The notes under the pieces are model-generated. The model was not told where the DNA came from. It ran no database searches and worked only from the letters and a program-made list of their open reading frames with translations. The translations under genes and the position numbers were made by a program. From a virus, in UHGV virus genome UHGV-1974775: a DNA stretch of 4,503 bases; one strand, written 5' to 3'. Numbering within the stretch: the stretch's first letter is position 1; each line of letters begins with the position of its first letter. Positions 639 through 4,503 of the stretch are shown piece by piece.

Positions 639-660
639 TATGCGCACCTTGGTGCGCATA
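639..660. repeat. Perfect inverted repeat TATGCGCACC-tt-GGTGCGCATA; its right arm is the XerC-binding arm of the dif-like site
   Basis: rc(639..648) = 651..660 exactly (10 nt arms, GC-rich). It would fold into a hairpin in the ssDNA genome and in the rep 5' leader, about 10 nt upstream of the rep SD. Confidence 0.7.
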
Positions 661-678
661 ATGTATATTTAGTTTAAC
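651..678. other. dif-like XerC/XerD recombination site (putative attP for host-Xer-mediated integration)
   Basis: Plus strand GGTGCGCATAA-TGTATA-TTTAGTTTAAC compared with canonical E. coli dif GGTGCGCATAA-TGTATA-TTATGTTAAAT (as I recall it): XerC arm 11/11, central region 6/6, XerD arm 7/11, total 24/28. It lies in the VP8-rep intergenic region. Confidence 0.75.
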
Positions 679-852: not shown

Positions 853-1635
853 TTACCTCCTAGGGGTTACTCGGAAAAACAGGGGGGAAGAATCCCCCCT
901 TTGGTTTACGGACTTAGCACTATTAGAATCGCGAAAGCCAAAGCCATCAAGACCTGAAATACGACGTAACCAACTACCAATCGCATTACCTTGTCCGACA
1001 AACCCTTTCCCTTGAGAGTCATAATTAACCTTAAGTGATTGAGCACCAGTCGGTGTATTCAAATAATCAGCCAGAACCTTGTCCTGAACAGTTTGATACT
1101 GTGTTCTAATCCGCTGCGCAGAACTGAGGCCTGTCTGTGCTTCAATATTGGCACGACGAGAAGCCTCGGTCAAAACCTGCTGATTAATCAGATTCGACTG
1201 CGATCGCATGTTATCGGCACTCTGGATAGCCTGGTCAGCCTGAGCCGTTTTAAGACGCACATCAGCCGCGCTATTCGCAATCTGGTTACGTTGTAACGCA
1301 ATCTGAGACTCAATGCCTTCACGGGCAACCTTTTGCTGCTCACGCTTCGTCAGAGCGTCGAACGCGGCAACGGCAGAGTTAACCGCACCAGAATAATCGG
1401 CAGGGGCAGCCTGCTGAATACCGGAAGAACTGACGGAACCAAGACCACCGGAACCATTAACGGCCAGAATCGGGTTAAGACCTGCTTTTCGCAAATCCTG
1501 TACGCGGTACTGCATACCGTTTTTGGCCAAATCCATCGTTAACTTGTTCGCCTGAGCGGCGTTCTGCTGGGCAGAGTGGGCACCAAGAAGAGAACCGGCA
1601 ACGGAACCTACAGCACCTGCAATTGCTCCCCACAT
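853..1635 (-). CDS. VP2: Minor capsid / DNA pilot protein
   Basis: 260-aa ORF immediately downstream of VP1 on the same strand. It has a Gly/Ala/Ser-rich N-terminus, the motif YRVQDLRKAGLNPILAV (the AGLNP motif recalled from Microviridae pilot proteins) and a Gln/Ala-rich central region that looks coiled-coil-like. SD GAGGTG lies 5 nt upstream of the ATG at 1635. Confidence 0.78.
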   Translation of the reverse strand: MWGAIAGAVGSVAGSLLGAHSAQQNAAQANKLTMDLAKNGMQYRVQDLRKAGLNPILAVNGSGGLGSVSSSGIQQAAPADYSGAVNSAVAAFDALTKREQQKVAREGIESQIALQRNQIANSAADVRLKTAQADQAIQSADNMRSQSNLINQQVLTEASRRANIEAQTGLSSAQRIRTQYQTVQDKVLADYLNTPTGAQSLKVNYDSQGKGFVGQGNAIGSWLRRISGLDGFGFRDSNSAKSVNQRGDSSPLFFRVTPRR

Positions 1636-1649
1636 AATTTCACCTCATG

Positions 1650-1672
1650 AAAAAAAGGCCTCCGAAGAGGCC
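1650..1672 (-). terminator. Rho-independent terminator/attenuator between VP1 and VP2
   Basis: On the minus-strand transcript, 13 nt after the VP1 stop (TAA 1688..1686): GGCCUC-UUCG-GAGGCC (6-bp GC-rich stem 1657..1662/1667..1672 with a UUCG tetraloop) followed directly by seven U (1656..1650). The VP2 SD and ATG follow 14 nt later. Confidence 0.6.
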
Positions 1673-1685
1673 AAAGAGTTGGGTT

Positions 1686-3365
1686 TTAAAAATGGTCAAT
1701 AAGACCGGGTACTGAATAAACTGGCATAGGCCGCACACATTTCAGGTCAAAGAATGCATCCAGAATGAACTGAGGCTCGTCCTGAACGGCCAGAACACGA
1801 CTCATCGGTGGATTCTCTTCGATGAACTCCTGATTCAATGCGGGCAGAGAGTCGAACCGCTGGGCTAAATGCCACACATCGAGGGATTGCGGGTCTGTGG
1901 AACGTAATTTACCAGTAATCTGGGATGGACGATAGCGGTACTCCGCGTAACGTTCCTGATAGCCAAAGACTTCATCATCTTTAGCGTTGCCTTGCGCATA
2001 AATCTCCTTGTTAAGAATAGCCTGTTCGCCCAGGTGGGCCAGTGCAGGCCAGTAGAAATCAAAGCGGGTCTGACGGGAGAACATGCGCGGGATGCCTTGC
2101 TGATAGGTCAAATCTGCACGGACAGATACAAGACCAATGACAAAACAGTGCTCCACAAAAGAATGTGAAAAACCACGGTTAACACCACCGGAAACACCAT
2201 AAGCTGCGAGGTTACCTTGTGGGCTGGCATCGGTAGTCGCAGAGTTCTGAAGAACGGGATTGATATTTATATCGAACGAACCAGAGCCAAGATACTCAGG
2301 ACGCTGAACACGGGCATCAGGAGAAATGACGCCAAAATGACTGCGAATAATCTCAATGTATCGCGTACCACCGCGAGCATCACGCTCAAGCAGGCGCTGA
2401 AGCTGGAACGCCTGACGCAATGAGTTAATCGTGAGATTGTCAACAACTTCACCACCTGTCTTTTCCAAAGTAACCGGAGGTTTGCCCGGAAGGAAACCGG
2501 AAATAACGTCATAACGTCCCTGAACAGGAGATTCAGGCCAGTTAATACCATTCTGAAGGCCACCGCTCAAATAGAGACCTGTATCGGCGTCAAGACCACT
2601 ACGGGCAATATAGCCCGTACCAGCAACAGTCTGGCCGCCGGCGCCATAAGACTGCGTAAAGAACGCTAAACCATCCGGATATTCCGGATAATTCAACGAG
2701 TACGACGGCGGAACGCCTAAACCAATCTCAACACCTTCGCCTTTCTGAGGCCACGGAAGGGCACTTGTGAAGTAATCATGACGCTTGGCACGCTTACGCA
2801 GCGGGAAATTTGCGAGACCTGTTTCCGTCTCATCGCCAAGCGGAAGCGGGGCGGAATTAATCAGGTTTTCGTCACGATACCACTCGTTATAAATCAGGTT
2901 ATAAGCGCGGAACGGCAGGGCGCTTACGCTGATACCTTCGACACCTGTAGGAACACCAAAATAATCGGCAAGAGAGCCAACAGGGAAACCGCCAGCAGGG
3001 GCTGTAATCTGCGGAATCAAATAATCCGTAGAATCACCAGGGTTCTTCTGTTCTCCGTTGAATTTCTGCCAGTTATCCCAGACGAGGCGATAAGGTACAG
3101 AAAAATACTGAATATCCAGACGTAGATTATCCATGAAAGGAACCACGGGCGTGGAAAGACGCGCGAGAACACTCGTTTTAAGGTGGAACGTATCACCCGG
3201 CAAAGCCTCATCCAGAAACACGGGAATCAAATAACCAGCGTCAAAGGTGGTTTTATAACCAGAACTACGGTTAAAGACCGAACGCTGAATATTAGCACTC
3301 GGGATTACTGAAAAATTATGCTGACTTTTTGCATTACTAGGTACTTTACGACCGAATTTACTCAT
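1686..3365 (-). CDS. VP1: Major capsid protein
   Basis: 559-aa ORF. The N-terminal region (SVIPSANIQRSVFNRSSGYKTTFDAGYLIPVF...LARLSTPVVPFMDNLRLDIQYFSVPYRLVWDNWQKFNGEQKNPGDSTDYL...YFTSALPWPQKG) matches the conserved pattern of gokushovirus VP1 as I recall it from Chlamydia-phage-type capsid proteins. ATG at 3365 preceded by a G-rich SD (GAGGGGGG). It is the largest ORF and fills 37% of the genome. Confidence 0.95.
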   Translation of the reverse strand: MSKFGRKVPSNAKSQHNFSVIPSANIQRSVFNRSSGYKTTFDAGYLIPVFLDEALPGDTFHLKTSVLARLSTPVVPFMDNLRLDIQYFSVPYRLVWDNWQKFNGEQKNPGDSTDYLIPQITAPAGGFPVGSLADYFGVPTGVEGISVSALPFRAYNLIYNEWYRDENLINSAPLPLGDETETGLANFPLRKRAKRHDYFTSALPWPQKGEGVEIGLGVPPSYSLNYPEYPDGLAFFTQSYGAGGQTVAGTGYIARSGLDADTGLYLSGGLQNGINWPESPVQGRYDVISGFLPGKPPVTLEKTGGEVVDNLTINSLRQAFQLQRLLERDARGGTRYIEIIRSHFGVISPDARVQRPEYLGSGSFDININPVLQNSATTDASPQGNLAAYGVSGGVNRGFSHSFVEHCFVIGLVSVRADLTYQQGIPRMFSRQTRFDFYWPALAHLGEQAILNKEIYAQGNAKDDEVFGYQERYAEYRYRPSQITGKLRSTDPQSLDVWHLAQRFDSLPALNQEFIEENPPMSRVLAVQDEPQFILDAFFDLKCVRPMPVYSVPGLIDHF

Positions 3366-3392
3366 AAACCCCCCTCAGGGAATTGTTTAAAT

Positions 3393-3421
3393 ACTATACA
3401 AACCACTGTATAAACTGACAC
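3393..3421 (-). promoter_or_regulatory. Weak candidate promoter upstream of VP1: -35 GTGTCA (3421..3416), 17-nt spacer, -10 TATAGT (3398..3393)
   Basis: By-eye match on the minus strand: -35 matches TTGACA at 4/6 and -10 matches TATAAT at 5/6, with a 17-nt spacer; about 28 nt upstream of the VP1 ATG. Confidence 0.25.
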
Positions 3422-3465
3422 CTTTTTACAGGCTTCGTGGGAGCCGCCTGTAAGTTTCGGTGTCA

Positions 3466-3502
3466 CCTGGCACAGTTACATCAAGTAGGGCACTGTGCCA
3501 GG
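3466..3502. repeat. Perfect 11-bp inverted repeat (stem-loop) in the VP3-VP1 intergenic region
   Basis: CCTGGCACAGT (3466..3476) pairs with ACTGTGCCAGG (3492..3502); loop of 15 nt (3477..3491). Located 9 nt downstream of the VP3 stop on the coding strand, with no U-run after it. Confidence 0.65.
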
Positions 3503-3510
3503 CTGCAGGG

Positions 3511-4020
3511 TCAGGAGCCGTCTGCAGGTTTCGCGGGTTCAGAACCCGCATTTGATGCTTTATTCACATCAGCACCGGAACGCTCCCGCGGGGACGCCGG
3601 AGCAGGTTCCGACTCGCGAACCTTCGGTTCGGTCGCCGAAACCTCTCCGCCGCTCAACAATCCAAGCTCACGGGCTTTATCCCAGTTCGCCGGATCACTC
3701 ATGAATTCAACGTACTGTTTAACGTTATTACCAAACATCGCGCGAGTAGCGGACGGCAGGCTATTAAAGTCGTCGTTAACGTCGTCAATTAAAGCCATTG
3801 CGTCCACATAATCGGTAATCGCGGATGCATCGTAAAATTCAGCACGTTGAGTACTGGTAAACACGGTCGTGTCTCCCGTTCTTATCGCACGCTCAACAAT
3901 CTTATTGATGTCGCACTCATCGCGGAAATGCTGCTGGGTCATCGTGGGTTCTTTGAACTCGATGCCGGGCGACGGTGGCGGGTCATAGCGGGTATGGAAC
4001 TTACGCTTCGATGTACGCAT
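3511..4020 (-). CDS. VP3: Internal scaffolding protein
   Basis: 169-aa ORF with motifs I recognise from gokushovirus VP3 proteins: FRDECDINKIV near the N-terminus and RAMFGNNVKQYVEFMSDPANWDKARELGL later. ATG at 4020 with AAGGA 8 nt upstream. The C-terminal ~45 aa form a Pro/Ser/Ala/Glu-rich low-complexity tail. Confidence 0.8.
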   Translation of the reverse strand: MRTSKRKFHTRYDPPPSPGIEFKEPTMTQQHFRDECDINKIVERAIRTGDTTVFTSTQRAEFYDASAITDYVDAMALIDDVNDDFNSLPSATRAMFGNNVKQYVEFMSDPANWDKARELGLLSGGEVSATEPKVRESEPAPASPRERSGADVNKASNAGSEPAKPADGS

Positions 4021-4270: not shown

Positions 4271-4503
4271 TTTCTAATTTCCTCATCATTCGCTGGAATT
4301 TAACCAGATTAAATTTATCTAAATCCTGCAAACGCCACGGGTCTAATACCTGAGCATTTAACTGGCGCTTTTCTTTATTTTGCTGCAACTTTTCCAAATC
4401 ACAGCCTGATAATAACTTGTCATAATAGCGGGGCGGTTTTATCTGACGACCGCCACGACCAATACACGCATCTGAATTAACTATGTCATCGTAATACTCC
4501 ATA
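4257..4503 (-). CDS. VP4: Replication initiation protein, 3' portion (last 81 codons plus stop), contiguous in frame with 1..617 if the molecule is circular
   Basis: ORF-track 81-aa ORF (MEYYDDIVNSDACIGRGGRQIKPPRYYDKLL...). Its first codon (4502..4500) sits immediately after the junction codon formed by positions 2,1,4503 (aaa on the plus strand = TTT, Phe), so the reading frame runs ...GIGYDFF-MEYYDD... with no stop. The combined protein is 287 aa. Confidence 0.72.
   Translation of the reverse strand, partial: MEYYDDIVNSDACIGRGGRQIKPPRYYDKLLSGCDLEKLQQNKEKRQLNAQVLDPWRLQDLDKFNLVKFQRMMRKLENGSL

What the first reader, a model, noticed from the sequence alone, without database searches (positions are those of the whole stretch)
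3511..3650. GC-rich, low-complexity acidic/proline-rich tail on the scaffold protein, with an embedded 17-nt perfect palindrome
The last ~45 residues of VP3 (GGEVSATEPKVRESEPAPASPRERSGADVNKASNAGSEPAKPADGS) are compositionally unlike the rest of the protein and are encoded by the most GC-rich stretch of the genome. That stretch contains the perfect palindrome GCGGGTTCaGAACCCGC (3533..3549). The tail may be a lineage-specific disordered extension, or the DNA may carry a second function such as a structured element or recombination remnant overprinted on the coding sequence.
Basis: seen in the sequence. Interest (0 to 1): 0.25.

Follow-up and report, generated by a model that had tools for sequence, protein, structure and literature searches.

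The report
Scaffold-protein tail encoded by conserved hairpin DNA
The floppy C-terminal tail of this small phage's scaffolding protein is ordinary for its family, but the DNA that encodes it is also folded into a chain of conserved hairpins (the reported palindrome is one) that runs straight into the probable replication-origin hairpin.

Summary
VP3 (3511-4020, minus strand) ends in a 47-residue Ala/Ser/Glu/Pro/Gly-rich tail, encoded by the most GC-rich stretch of this enterogokushovirus genome, and the 17-nt perfect palindrome lies at 3533-3549.

The tail is not lineage-specific. All 106 distant gokushovirus VP3s examined carry one (median 34 residues). AlphaFold predicts disorder. The GC excess sits only at codon positions 1 and 2, so it reflects amino-acid composition.

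The DNA has a constraint of its own:
- The tail plus the VP3-VP1 spacer is the most stably folded block of the genome.
- The tail folds far better than its codon-shuffled versions (z -3.5).
- Third-position diversity in residues 123-150 is lower than in any gene, and codon periodicity is lost.
- Helices, including the palindrome, are kept by compensatory changes, some of which change amino acids.

The hairpin chain abuts an 11-bp hairpin (3466-3502) whose loop, CTACTTGATGTAAC, resembles the phiX174 nick site and is conserved across gokushoviruses.

Best reading: a disordered tail whose coding DNA doubles as an origin-associated single-strand element, possibly the complementary-strand origin. 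The function is inferred, not shown.

The parts
3511..4020 (-). VP3 internal scaffolding protein gene (169 codons plus stop at 3511-3513)
   Evidence: ORF list; Pfam PF09675 E=6.5e-35; 89% identical to the annotated vp3 of Escherichia phage EC6098
3514..3654 (-). Coding DNA of the low-complexity, predicted-disordered C-terminal tail (residues 123-169)
   Evidence: Composition and GC by codon position; pLDDT <50; tail present in all relatives
3571..3654 (-). Closing stem (AGCGGCGGA / TCCGGTGCT) of a branched fold that encloses H0 and H0b; residues 123-150
   Evidence: Predicted in both the DNA and RNA folds; 88.8% of cells paired, no double changes (helix 1); third-position diversity 0.10 with no codon periodicity
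3604..3644 (-). Hairpin H0: outer stem AGGTTTCGG/TCGGAACCT and inner stem CGAAC(C)-GAA-(G)GTTCG (3617-3631)
   Evidence: helices 2 and 3: pair 32-69 is UA:12 / AU:7 / CG:1, and L141 carries the compensated CGGAC/GTCCG. Relatives with a 3-nt insertion rebuild the apex as CGAACGC-GCCA-GCGTTCG
3582..3603 (-). Hairpin H0b GCTCC.GCG-TCCC-CGC.GGAGC, which encodes the invariant PAPASPRER core
   Evidence: Invariant in 20 of 20 sequences, so there is no covariation evidence for or against it (helix 5). The same codons CCG CGG GAG CGT are kept even in relatives whose VP3 is 65-73% identical (L147, L148, L152)
3533..3549 (-).
   Evidence: Compensated variants: EC6098 GCAGGTT/AACCTGC and L137 GAGGGTT/AACCCTC. 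helix 8. Unrelated palindromes occupy the same place in L147, L146 and L151
3503..3527 (-). Hairpin H2, CTGCAG-13 nt-CTGCAG, with the VP3 stop codon (3511-3513) in its loop
   Evidence: helix 9: pair 189-207 is CG:10 / AU:9 / GU:1. EC6098 has CTGAAG/CTTCAG, L129 has ATGAAG/CTTCAT, L147 has CTGACAG/CTGTCAG. In EC6098 the stop codon lies in the 5' arm, so the rest of H2 is untranslated there
3514..3524 (-). Copy 1 of the direct repeat CAGRCGGCTCC, in the H2 loop; it encodes the last four VP3 codons (A-D-G-S)
   Evidence: Two matches in the genome against 0.12 expected; 1 of 200 shuffles reaches two; conserved whether translated or not
3466..3502 (-). Hairpin H3, CCTGGCACAGT-15 nt-ACTGTGCCAGG; the loop holds CTACTTGATGTAAC (motif at 3475-3485). 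Probable viral-strand replication origin
   Evidence: Perfect 11-bp arms; pi 0.021, about an eighth of the genome mean of 0.161; single copy; exact 20-mer in 26 IMG/VR contigs and matches in 59 further Microviridae records; resembles the phiX174 origin CAACTTG/ATATTAATAAC, annotated rep_origin at 4306; equivalent hairpins in Chp2, phiMH2K and SpV4
3416..3465 (-). Hairpin H4 (TGACACC/GGTGTCA) enclosing H5 (TTACAGGC/GCCTGTAA, 3426-3453), whose loop carries copy 2 of CAGRCGGCTCC (3440-3450)
   Evidence: helix 11, has compensated changes (L139 GACAGC/GCTGTC, L141 GACAGT/ACTGTC)
3393..3421 (-). Promoter-like site GTGTCA-17-TATAGT upstream of VP1
   Evidence: Consensus scan only, 9 of 12 matches

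Best explanation
The last 47 residues of VP3 are the family-typical, intrinsically disordered C-terminal tail of the gokushovirus internal scaffolding protein. Its GC-richness is a by-product of its Ala/Gly/Pro/Ser/Glu codons. Because the protein constraint on this tail is weak, its coding DNA has also been shaped into a chain of hairpins on the viral strand: a branched H0/H0b domain, H1 (the reported palindrome), and H2, which spans the stop codon. The chain leads without a gap into an 11-bp hairpin whose loop carries a phiX174-like nick sequence, the probable origin where the VP4 replication protein cuts. Selection acts on the fold, so substitutions are compensated even when that changes amino acids, and silent sites are unusually conserved. 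The most likely role is a cis-acting element of the single-stranded stage that belongs to the origin region. Within that, I favour a complementary-strand origin or priming site placed just 5' of the nick, as in filamentous phages and rolling-circle plasmids. An origin accessory that includes binding sites for the replication protein is the second option. Shown here: the tail is typical and predicted disordered, the region folds, the helices covary, and silent sites are constrained. Inferred: that H3 is the origin, and that the hairpins serve replication.
For: Tail is typical and disordered. GC excess only at codon positions 1 and 2: window 0.72/0.65/0.52 against body 0.51/0.42/0.57; 72 lineages, position 3 p=0.39. 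Folding: the 281 nt at 3380-3660 give z=-7.9 as viral-strand DNA and -7.6 as RNA. The two lowest-energy 120-nt windows of the genome are 3514-3633 and 3544-3663. Codon-order shuffles give z=-3.46 for the tail against -0.16 for VP3 body segments. Covariation: 14 pairs change on both sides against 5.7+-1.4 in shuffles (0/500) and 3-8 in slid controls; score 0.097 against <=0.039. Independent compensated events occur in H0, H1, H2 and H4, including L137's A->E plus A->S in H1. Divergent relatives have unrelated hairpins at the same position. Nucleotide constraint: synonymous diversity 0.061 against 0.227 (p=3e-7) while amino-acid diversity is 0.236 against 0.104. Third-position diversity is 0.10 in residues 123-150 against 0.17-0.38 in every gene, with flat periodicity as in the adjacent spacer. 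The same DNA (H2 and the repeat) is coding in the window and non-coding in EC6098. Link to the origin: H3 evidence. In 33 lineages the 120 nt upstream of H3 fold better than control windows (median z -2.9 against -0.96, p=7e-7).
Against: No experiment bears on function. H0b and H3 are invariant, so they give no covariation evidence. The 20 sequences are related, so the counts of cells overstate the number of independent events; I count roughly a dozen. The palindrome-bearing part of the tail (residues 151-169) has only average nucleotide diversity (0.158). The G.T versus A.C test for which strand folds is weak (64 against 38 cells overall). There is no similarity to any known complementary-strand origin, single-strand origin or Rfam family. 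VP3 bodies also fold somewhat better than their codon shuffles (median z -1.8), so part of the signal is a genome-wide habit of single-stranded DNA phages. In Chp2 and phiMH2K the tail exists without the origin hairpin next to it, so the DNA role cannot be the reason the tail exists.
Confidence: 0.55

Rival explanations
1. RNA-level element. The hairpins act in the VP4-VP5-VP3 messenger RNA, which has the same sense as the viral strand, as a 3' stabiliser, a processing site or an attenuator that sets the ratio of VP3 to VP1 expression.
For: The RNA fold is as significant as the DNA fold (z=-7.6). Several conserved G.U pairs are standard pairs in RNA. The hairpins lie between the VP3 stop and a promoter-like site for VP1.
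Against: No hairpin in 3380-3660 is followed by a T-run, whereas canonical terminator-like sites do exist elsewhere on the viral strand (1672-1657 after VP1; 900-881). H0 and H0b lie well inside the translated region, where ribosomes would unfold them. The chain is contiguous with the origin-like hairpin.
Confidence: 0.15
2. By-product only. The tail is a disordered protein segment, and its palindromes arise because Ala (GCN), Gly (GGN) and Pro (CCN) codons are mutually complementary. The low diversity reflects recent recombination near the origin rather than selection on a fold.
For: Six of the eight pairs of the palindrome are fixed by the peptide AGSEPA, and the chance of the palindrome given that peptide is 7.6%. 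The GC excess is compositional. Tail variants are mosaic. Divergence varies by region; for example VP4 has pi 0.04-0.05.
Against: Codon-order shuffles that keep composition still give z=-3.46. Double changes exceed the shuffled and slid controls. Third-position diversity in the tail is below even that of VP4 (0.10 against 0.17). Unrelated tail sequences carry hairpins at the same position.
Confidence: 0.12
3. Mutational origin. Palindromes are kept perfect by strand-switch (quasi-palindrome templated) mutation during single-stranded DNA replication, which copies a change from one arm to the other without any selected function.
For: The compensated changes in H1 and H2 are exact complementary pairs, which is the signature of templated correction. 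That mechanism is known to me from established work on quasi-palindromes, not from a result obtained here.
Against: It does not explain why hairpins of unrelated sequence recur at the same position in divergent lineages. It does not explain the suppressed third-position variation in unpaired as well as paired positions, or the family-wide enrichment of folding upstream of the origin hairpin. Imperfect helices with conserved mismatches and G.T pairs persist.
Confidence: 0.08
4. A second protein-coding frame overlaps the tail, on either strand, and its purifying selection suppresses silent changes in VP3.
For: Silent sites are conserved while amino acids vary, which is the classic sign of overlapping genes in microviruses. 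Complementary-strand frames stay open for 83-102 codons in all relatives. Window ORFs: 3437-3811 (+) and 3495-3704 (+).
Against: Diversity is flat across all three codon positions in residues 123-150 (0.090/0.107/0.108), with no shifted periodicity. Open antisense frames are expected in GC-rich coding DNA. The 1-nt and 3-nt indels among relatives would break any overlapping frame. These ORFs would run through the origin hairpin. To my knowledge, microviruses transcribe one strand only.
Confidence: 0.03

Closest known systems
Gokushovirus VP3 / phiX174 protein B internal scaffolding proteins (Pfam Chlamy_scaf PF09675)
   Same: Clear family member (E=6.5e-35). Same gene position between VP5 and VP1. 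Helical conserved core followed by a variable low-complexity tail, as in all homologues sampled.
   Different: The tail is at the long end (47 residues against a median of 34). Its coding DNA carries conserved, covarying hairpins and unusually conserved silent sites.
phiX174 viral-strand origin (30-nt site in gene A, nick after CAACTTG)
   Same: The H3 loop CCCTACTTGATGT matches the phiX174 sequence CCCCAACTTGATAT around the annotated nick. The replication protein is of the same rolling-circle type (annotated in relatives). Like the phiX174 origin, the element touches or overlaps coding sequence. In L149, L150, L083, L177 and L107 the VP3 stop codon is the TGA of CTTGATG.
   Different: Here the motif sits in the loop of an 11-bp hairpin next to VP3 rather than inside the replication gene, and it is flanked by a direct repeat. 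Cleavage has not been tested.
Complementary-strand origins placed next to the viral-strand origin: hairpins B and C of the f1/M13 intergenic region, and the single-strand origins (sso) of rolling-circle plasmids
   Same: A run of stable imperfect hairpins on the displaced strand lies immediately 5' of the nick site. This comparison rests on my knowledge of those systems.
   Different: No sequence or model similarity to any of them. The element here lies inside a protein-coding region. Priming activity and orientation dependence are untested.
G4-type and phiX174-type complementary-strand origins of Bullavirinae (primase site, PriA assembly site)
   Same: Same host group (Escherichia) and the same need to convert incoming single-stranded DNA to duplex. 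Both are hairpin-based.
   Different: Those lie in the F-G intergenic region. A blastn search found no match to any Bullavirinae record.

Membership tests
Gokushovirinae VP3 internal scaffolding protein (Pfam PF09675) | Profile match above the curated cut-off | tested here: met
   120.6 bits against a cut-off of 25, E=6.5e-35, residues 11-144
Gokushovirinae VP3 internal scaffolding protein (Pfam PF09675) | Gene order VP4-VP5-VP3-VP1-VP2-VP8 in a circular genome of about 4.5 kb | tested here: met
   ORFs and Pfam hits; collinear with the annotated EC6098 genome
Gokushovirinae VP3 internal scaffolding protein (Pfam PF09675) | Variable low-complexity C-terminal tail after the conserved core | tested here: met
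   All 128 distinct loci have one; distant set median 34 residues, 10th-90th percentile 22-41.5; also Chp2 and phiMH2K
phiX174-type viral-strand (rolling-circle) origin | Nick-site sequence related to CAACTTG/ATATTAATAAC | tested here: met
   CTACTTGATGTAAC at 3475-3488 compared with phiX174 positions 4299-4316 and its rep_origin annotation
phiX174-type viral-strand (rolling-circle) origin | Single copy, and conserved wherever the cognate replication protein is found | tested here: met
   One match in the window; pi 0.021; present in 84 of 128 VP3 loci, 26 IMG/VR contigs, 59 further GenBank microviruses, and Chp2, phiMH2K and SpV4
phiX174-type viral-strand (rolling-circle) origin | Site-specific cleavage and joining by the replication protein | not testable with these tools
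   Requires a VP4 nicking assay
Complementary-strand / single-strand origin (sso, f1 minus origin, G4 origin) | Extensive stable secondary structure on the displaced (viral) strand | tested here: met
   z=-7.9; lowest folding energies in the genome; covariation
Complementary-strand / single-strand origin (sso, f1 minus origin, G4 origin) | Lies just upstream of the nick site on the viral strand | tested here: met
   H0 to H2 occupy 3503-3654, directly 5' of H3 at 3466-3502. This depends on H3 being the origin
Complementary-strand / single-strand origin (sso, f1 minus origin, G4 origin) | Strand-specific (works in one orientation only) | tested here: inconclusive
   The viral strand folds better than its complement (-67.9 against -60.5 kcal/mol); G.T against A.C cells 64 against 38
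Complementary-strand / single-strand origin (sso, f1 minus origin, G4 origin) | Sequence or model similarity to a described class | tested here: not met
   No Rfam match in the region; no blastn match outside gokushoviruses
Complementary-strand / single-strand origin (sso, f1 minus origin, G4 origin) | Primes complementary-strand synthesis | not testable with these tools
   Requires a cloning assay in an origin-deficient replicon, or in vitro priming
Intrinsic (rho-independent) terminator | GC-rich hairpin followed by a T-run | tested here: not met
   No site reported on the viral strand in 3380-3660, while sites are found at 1672-1657 and 900-881
Overlapping (overprinted) gene | A conserved open frame with its own codon periodicity | tested here: not met
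   Flat diversity across codon positions; frame-breaking indels among relatives

The most novel reading that the evidence does not exclude
The hairpin chain inside the VP3 tail coding region is the so far unidentified complementary-strand origin of enterobacterial gokushoviruses. It would be a new class of single-strand origin with no similarity to the phiX174, G4, f1 or plasmid types. It would be written into a protein-coding region, so that the scaffolding protein's tail evolves in step with the DNA fold, with amino-acid changes that covary to keep base pairs. The flanking CAGRCGGCTCC repeats would be binding sites for the replication protein.
Probability: 0.3. Interest if true: 0.6.

Novelty: new variant of a known kind. 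Interest (0 to 1): 0.45.

Why it matters
Gokushoviruses are among the most abundant single-stranded DNA phages in gut and aquatic samples. I found no description of their replication origins in the literature I could search. EC6098, a close relative of this genome, is a cultivable, genetically tractable Escherichia model. This analysis gives exact coordinates and ready-made natural compensatory variants for:
- a probable viral-strand origin hairpin shared across the subfamily;
- an adjacent structured element that overlaps the scaffolding gene.

That makes both origins directly testable. It is also a clean example of a disordered protein segment that lets a nucleic-acid fold dictate its sequence. 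This matters for genome annotation and selection scans, where such regions mimic positive selection, and for recoding or synthetic redesign of these phages.

Tried and rejected
- Rfam at a permissive threshold found nothing in the region; the only hit is a sub-threshold suhB match at 1642-1713.
- A distant blastn of 3400-3660 against 50,697 phage records found only the ~45-nt H3 outside the clade, and nothing in Bullavirinae.
- The terminator scan found no hairpin with a T-run in the region.
- The overlapping-gene idea was rejected on flat codon-position diversity and frame-breaking indels.
- 'GC-richness reflects selection for GC-rich DNA' was rejected, because the excess is absent at third positions in the window and across 72 lineages.
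- 'Tail unique to this lineage' was rejected.
- 'Tail exists because of the origin hairpins' was rejected, because Chp2 and phiMH2K have tails without an adjacent origin hairpin.
- The G.T versus A.C strand test was too weak to decide which strand, or which molecule, folds.
- The genome-contig scan gave only two distant loci.
- Literature searches for a described gokushovirus origin hairpin found nothing. The EC6098 cryo-EM paper and the phiMH2K paper are not held. I therefore cannot exclude that older subscription papers on SpV4, Chp2 or phiMH2K already noted the H3 hairpin.
- Kirchberger and Ochman 2020 (PMC7062461) list the variable regions of these prophages and do not mention the VP3 tail or this spacer.

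Full report
**What the window is.** The 4503 bases are a complete circular gokushovirus genome, cut inside the replication gene, with every gene on the minus strand. It is about 92% identical to Escherichia phage EC6098 (genus Enterogokushovirus) over 90% of its length and collinear with that annotated genome. ORF 3511-4020 (minus strand) is VP3, the internal scaffolding protein (Pfam PF09675, E=6.5e-35). Close relatives occur as prophages beside hipA in Escherichia chromosomes.

**The observation.** It is correct. The 17-nt perfect palindrome lies at 3533-3549. The quoted residues are the end of VP3. The window 3501-3650 has the highest GC of the genome, 0.633 against a mean of 0.48. The tail is Ala/Ser/Glu/Pro/Gly-rich and only mildly acidic, with net charge about -2. 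On its own the palindrome is weak evidence. It encodes A-G-S-E-P-A in frame, so six of its eight pairs are fixed by the amino acids and only two wobble-wobble pairs are free. Random synonymous coding of that peptide gives the palindrome 7.6% of the time. Shuffling the tail's codons gives one of that size 2.3% of the time, and 12% of whole-genome shuffles contain one.

**The tail as protein.** It is not lineage-specific.
- All 22 homologues in the protein database that reach the C-terminus have it. Their sequences fall into several variants around a nearly invariant PRER core.
- Among 128 distinct VP3 loci from viral, metagenomic and genomic collections, every one has a low-complexity tail after the conserved ELGLL. 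For the 106 with under 59% identity, the median is 34 residues, the 10th-90th percentiles are 22-41.5, and none is 10 or shorter.
- Chp2 and phiMH2K have tails of 35-38 residues.
- AlphaFold gives pLDDT below 50 and no secondary structure for residues 125-169, against 72-88 for the helical core at 71-118.
- The GC excess is at codon positions 1 and 2 only: 0.72/0.65/0.52 in the tail against 0.51/0.42/0.57 in the body. The same holds across 72 lineages, with position 3 at p=0.39. The GC-richness therefore follows from the amino acids.

**The tail as DNA.** Three independent lines show a constraint on the nucleotides themselves.
- *Folding.* The 281 nt at 3380-3660 fold with z=-7.9 as viral-strand DNA, -7.6 as RNA, and -5.8 for the complementary strand. 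In a scan of the whole genome, the two lowest-energy 120-nt windows are 3514-3633 and 3544-3663, and the block from about 3394 to 3663 holds most of the strongest z-scores. Against shuffles of codon order, which keep amino-acid and codon composition, the tail gives z=-3.46 while VP3 body segments give -0.16.
- *Covariation.* On an alignment of 20 distinct relatives, 14 predicted pairs change on both sides, against 5.7+-1.4 in shuffles (0 of 500) and 3-8 when partners are slid. The covariation score is 0.097 against at most 0.039 in any slid control.
  - In the palindrome (H1), EC6098 has GCAGGTT/AACCTGC through two silent changes. L137 has GAGGGTT/AACCCTC through Ala->Glu plus Ala->Ser. The five basal GC pairs never carry an uncompensated change; the only uncompensated changes touch the three loop-proximal pairs.
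  - H2, which spans the stop codon, alternates among CTGCAG/CTGCAG, CTGAAG/CTTCAG, ATGAAG/CTTCAT and CTGACAG/CTGTCAG.
  - H0 shows U-A, A-U and C-G at one pair, a compensated CGGAC/GTCCG in L141, and an apex rebuilt around a 3-nt insertion.
  - More divergent relatives, whose tail sequences cannot be aligned, carry different hairpins at the same place. Examples are Salmonella GATGCAGG-TGCG-CCTGCATC and L151 ATGCATCC-ACCCC-GGATGCAT.
- *Substitution pattern.* Synonymous diversity in the tail is 0.061 against 0.227 in the body (p=3e-7), while amino-acid diversity is twice as high. In residues 123-150, diversity is flat across codon positions (0.090/0.107/0.108). Third-position diversity there (0.10) is below that of every gene: VP4 0.17, VP3 body 0.23, VP1 0.33, VP5 0.33, VP2 0.38. 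This stretch behaves like the neighbouring conserved spacer, whose pi is 0.083.

The difference in the final residues between the window (PADGS) and EC6098 (T) comes from a 1-nt indel. The same conserved DNA, H2 with the motif CAGACGGCTCC, is translated in one and untranslated in the other.

**What the hairpins lead to.** Directly after H2 comes an 11-bp perfect hairpin (3466-3502) with the loop TGCCCTACTTGATGTAA.
- Its nucleotide diversity is about an eighth of the genome mean (pi 0.021 against 0.161), and its core motif occurs once in the genome.
- It is shared almost unchanged with very distant microviruses: the exact 20-mer occurs in 26 IMG/VR contigs, and 59 further GenBank records match.
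- Chp2, phiMH2K and SpV4 have equivalent hairpins with a (C/T)TACTTG(A/T)T loop.
- The loop resembles the phiX174 viral-strand origin CCCCCAACTTG/ATATTAATAAC, whose nick position is annotated in the record.

I infer that this is the gokushovirus viral-strand origin. In 84 of 128 VP3 loci the motif lies within a few dozen bases of the VP3 stop. In five lineages the stop codon is the TGA of CTTGATG itself. The 11-mer CAGRCGGCTCC occurs exactly twice, in the loops of H2 and H5, 74 nt apart on either side of the origin hairpin (expected 0.12). Across 33 lineage representatives, the 120 nt upstream of the origin hairpin fold better than control windows (median z -2.9 against -0.96, p=7e-7) and are 10.6 GC points above the genome average.

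**Interpretation.** The tail exists for protein reasons. It is universal, and it is present even where the origin hairpin is not adjacent. Because it is disordered and tolerant of change, its coding DNA in this clade has been taken over by a structured cis element that belongs to the origin region. I favour a role in the single-stranded stage, as a complementary-strand origin or priming site just 5' of the nick. That is the arrangement in f1/M13 and in rolling-circle plasmids. An origin accessory is the second choice. This step is inference from position and analogy.

Rivals, in order of weight:
- An RNA-level role, weakened because T-runs are absent here although canonical terminators exist elsewhere in the genome.
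- A compositional or recombinational by-product, weakened by the codon-shuffle control, the covariation, and third-position diversity below that of any gene.
- Templated quasi-palindrome mutation, which does not explain recurrent hairpins of unrelated sequence at one position.
- An overlapping gene, excluded in practice by the flat periodicity and the indels.

**Limits.** The sequences are related, and I count roughly a dozen independent compensatory events. H0b and H3 are invariant, so they say nothing about pairing. The palindrome-bearing part of the tail has only average diversity. VP3 bodies also fold somewhat better than codon shuffles (median z -1.8). The strand test is weak. I could not read the older gokushovirus papers, so the origin hairpin may already have been noted there.

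**Verdict.** The tail itself is ordinary for the family. The palindrome is a real, conserved hairpin, one of a chain overprinted on the tail's coding DNA next to the probable origin. That is a new variant of a known kind of element and is directly testable in the EC6098 system.

Noticed in passing
window 3466-3502 (minus strand); also L003, L153-L177, L179-L181: An 11-bp hairpin with the loop CTACTTGATGTAAC is nearly invariant across very distant microviruses and resembles the phiX174 nick site. It is probably the gokushovirus viral-strand origin. I found no description of it in the searchable literature.
   Followed up: yes
window 3440-3450 and 3514-3524 (minus strand): The direct repeat CAGRCGGCTCC occurs exactly twice (expected 0.12), in the loops of the hairpins on either side of the origin hairpin, 74 nt apart. 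The copies could be binding sites for the replication protein.
   Followed up: partly
L149, L150, L083, L177, L107: In these lineages the VP3 reading frame runs through the left arm and loop of the origin hairpin and stops at the TGA inside CTTGATG, so the scaffolding gene physically overlaps the putative nick site.
   Followed up: partly
window 639-678: A dif-like motif GGTGCGCATAATGTATATT (from 651) lies next to a 10-bp perfect inverted repeat (639-660), in the spacer upstream of VP4. EC6098 annotates a dif-motif beside the VP4 start. All E. coli prophage relatives sit beside hipA.
   Followed up: partly
window 2664-2698 (inside VP1): A 16-nt-arm imperfect inverted repeat lies here, and the 120-nt window 2584-2703 has the second strongest folding z-score in the genome (-5.8). 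This is unexplained.
   Followed up: no
window 1657-1672 and 881-900 (minus strand): Canonical terminator-like hairpins with T-runs: GGCCTCTTCGGAGGCC followed by TTTTTTT between VP1 and VP2, and AGGGGGGATTCTTCCCCCCT followed by GTTTTT near the end of VP2.
   Followed up: no
P0019 (E. coli prophage protein, 122 residues): A natural VP3 variant loses the region after residue 89 and continues in the frame of the small window ORF 3426-3551 (LQTAPDPAAWHSALLDVTVPGDTETYRRLPRSL). It looks like a deletion in a decaying prophage.
   Followed up: no
L134, L145, L146 (alignment A4, columns 97-129): A tail variant has a 33-nt insertion and a different ending (..ERTSESSPKGESEKSANNDAGS). The insertion brings its own hairpin (CTTCGG-8 nt-CCGAAG). 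The ANNDAG segment is shared with the Salmonella relative L147, which suggests mosaic exchange within the tail.
   Followed up: partly
VP3 body segments in 72 lineages: Even outside the tail, VP3 coding DNA folds better than codon-order shuffles (median z -1.8). This suggests pervasive secondary structure in these single-stranded genomes.
   Followed up: no
L079 (OLSJ01000077.1, an 86.9-kb metagenome contig): This contig carries a VP3 99.4% identical to the window's, inside a long bacterial contig. It is the closest relative found and is probably an integrated copy of nearly the same phage.
   Followed up: no
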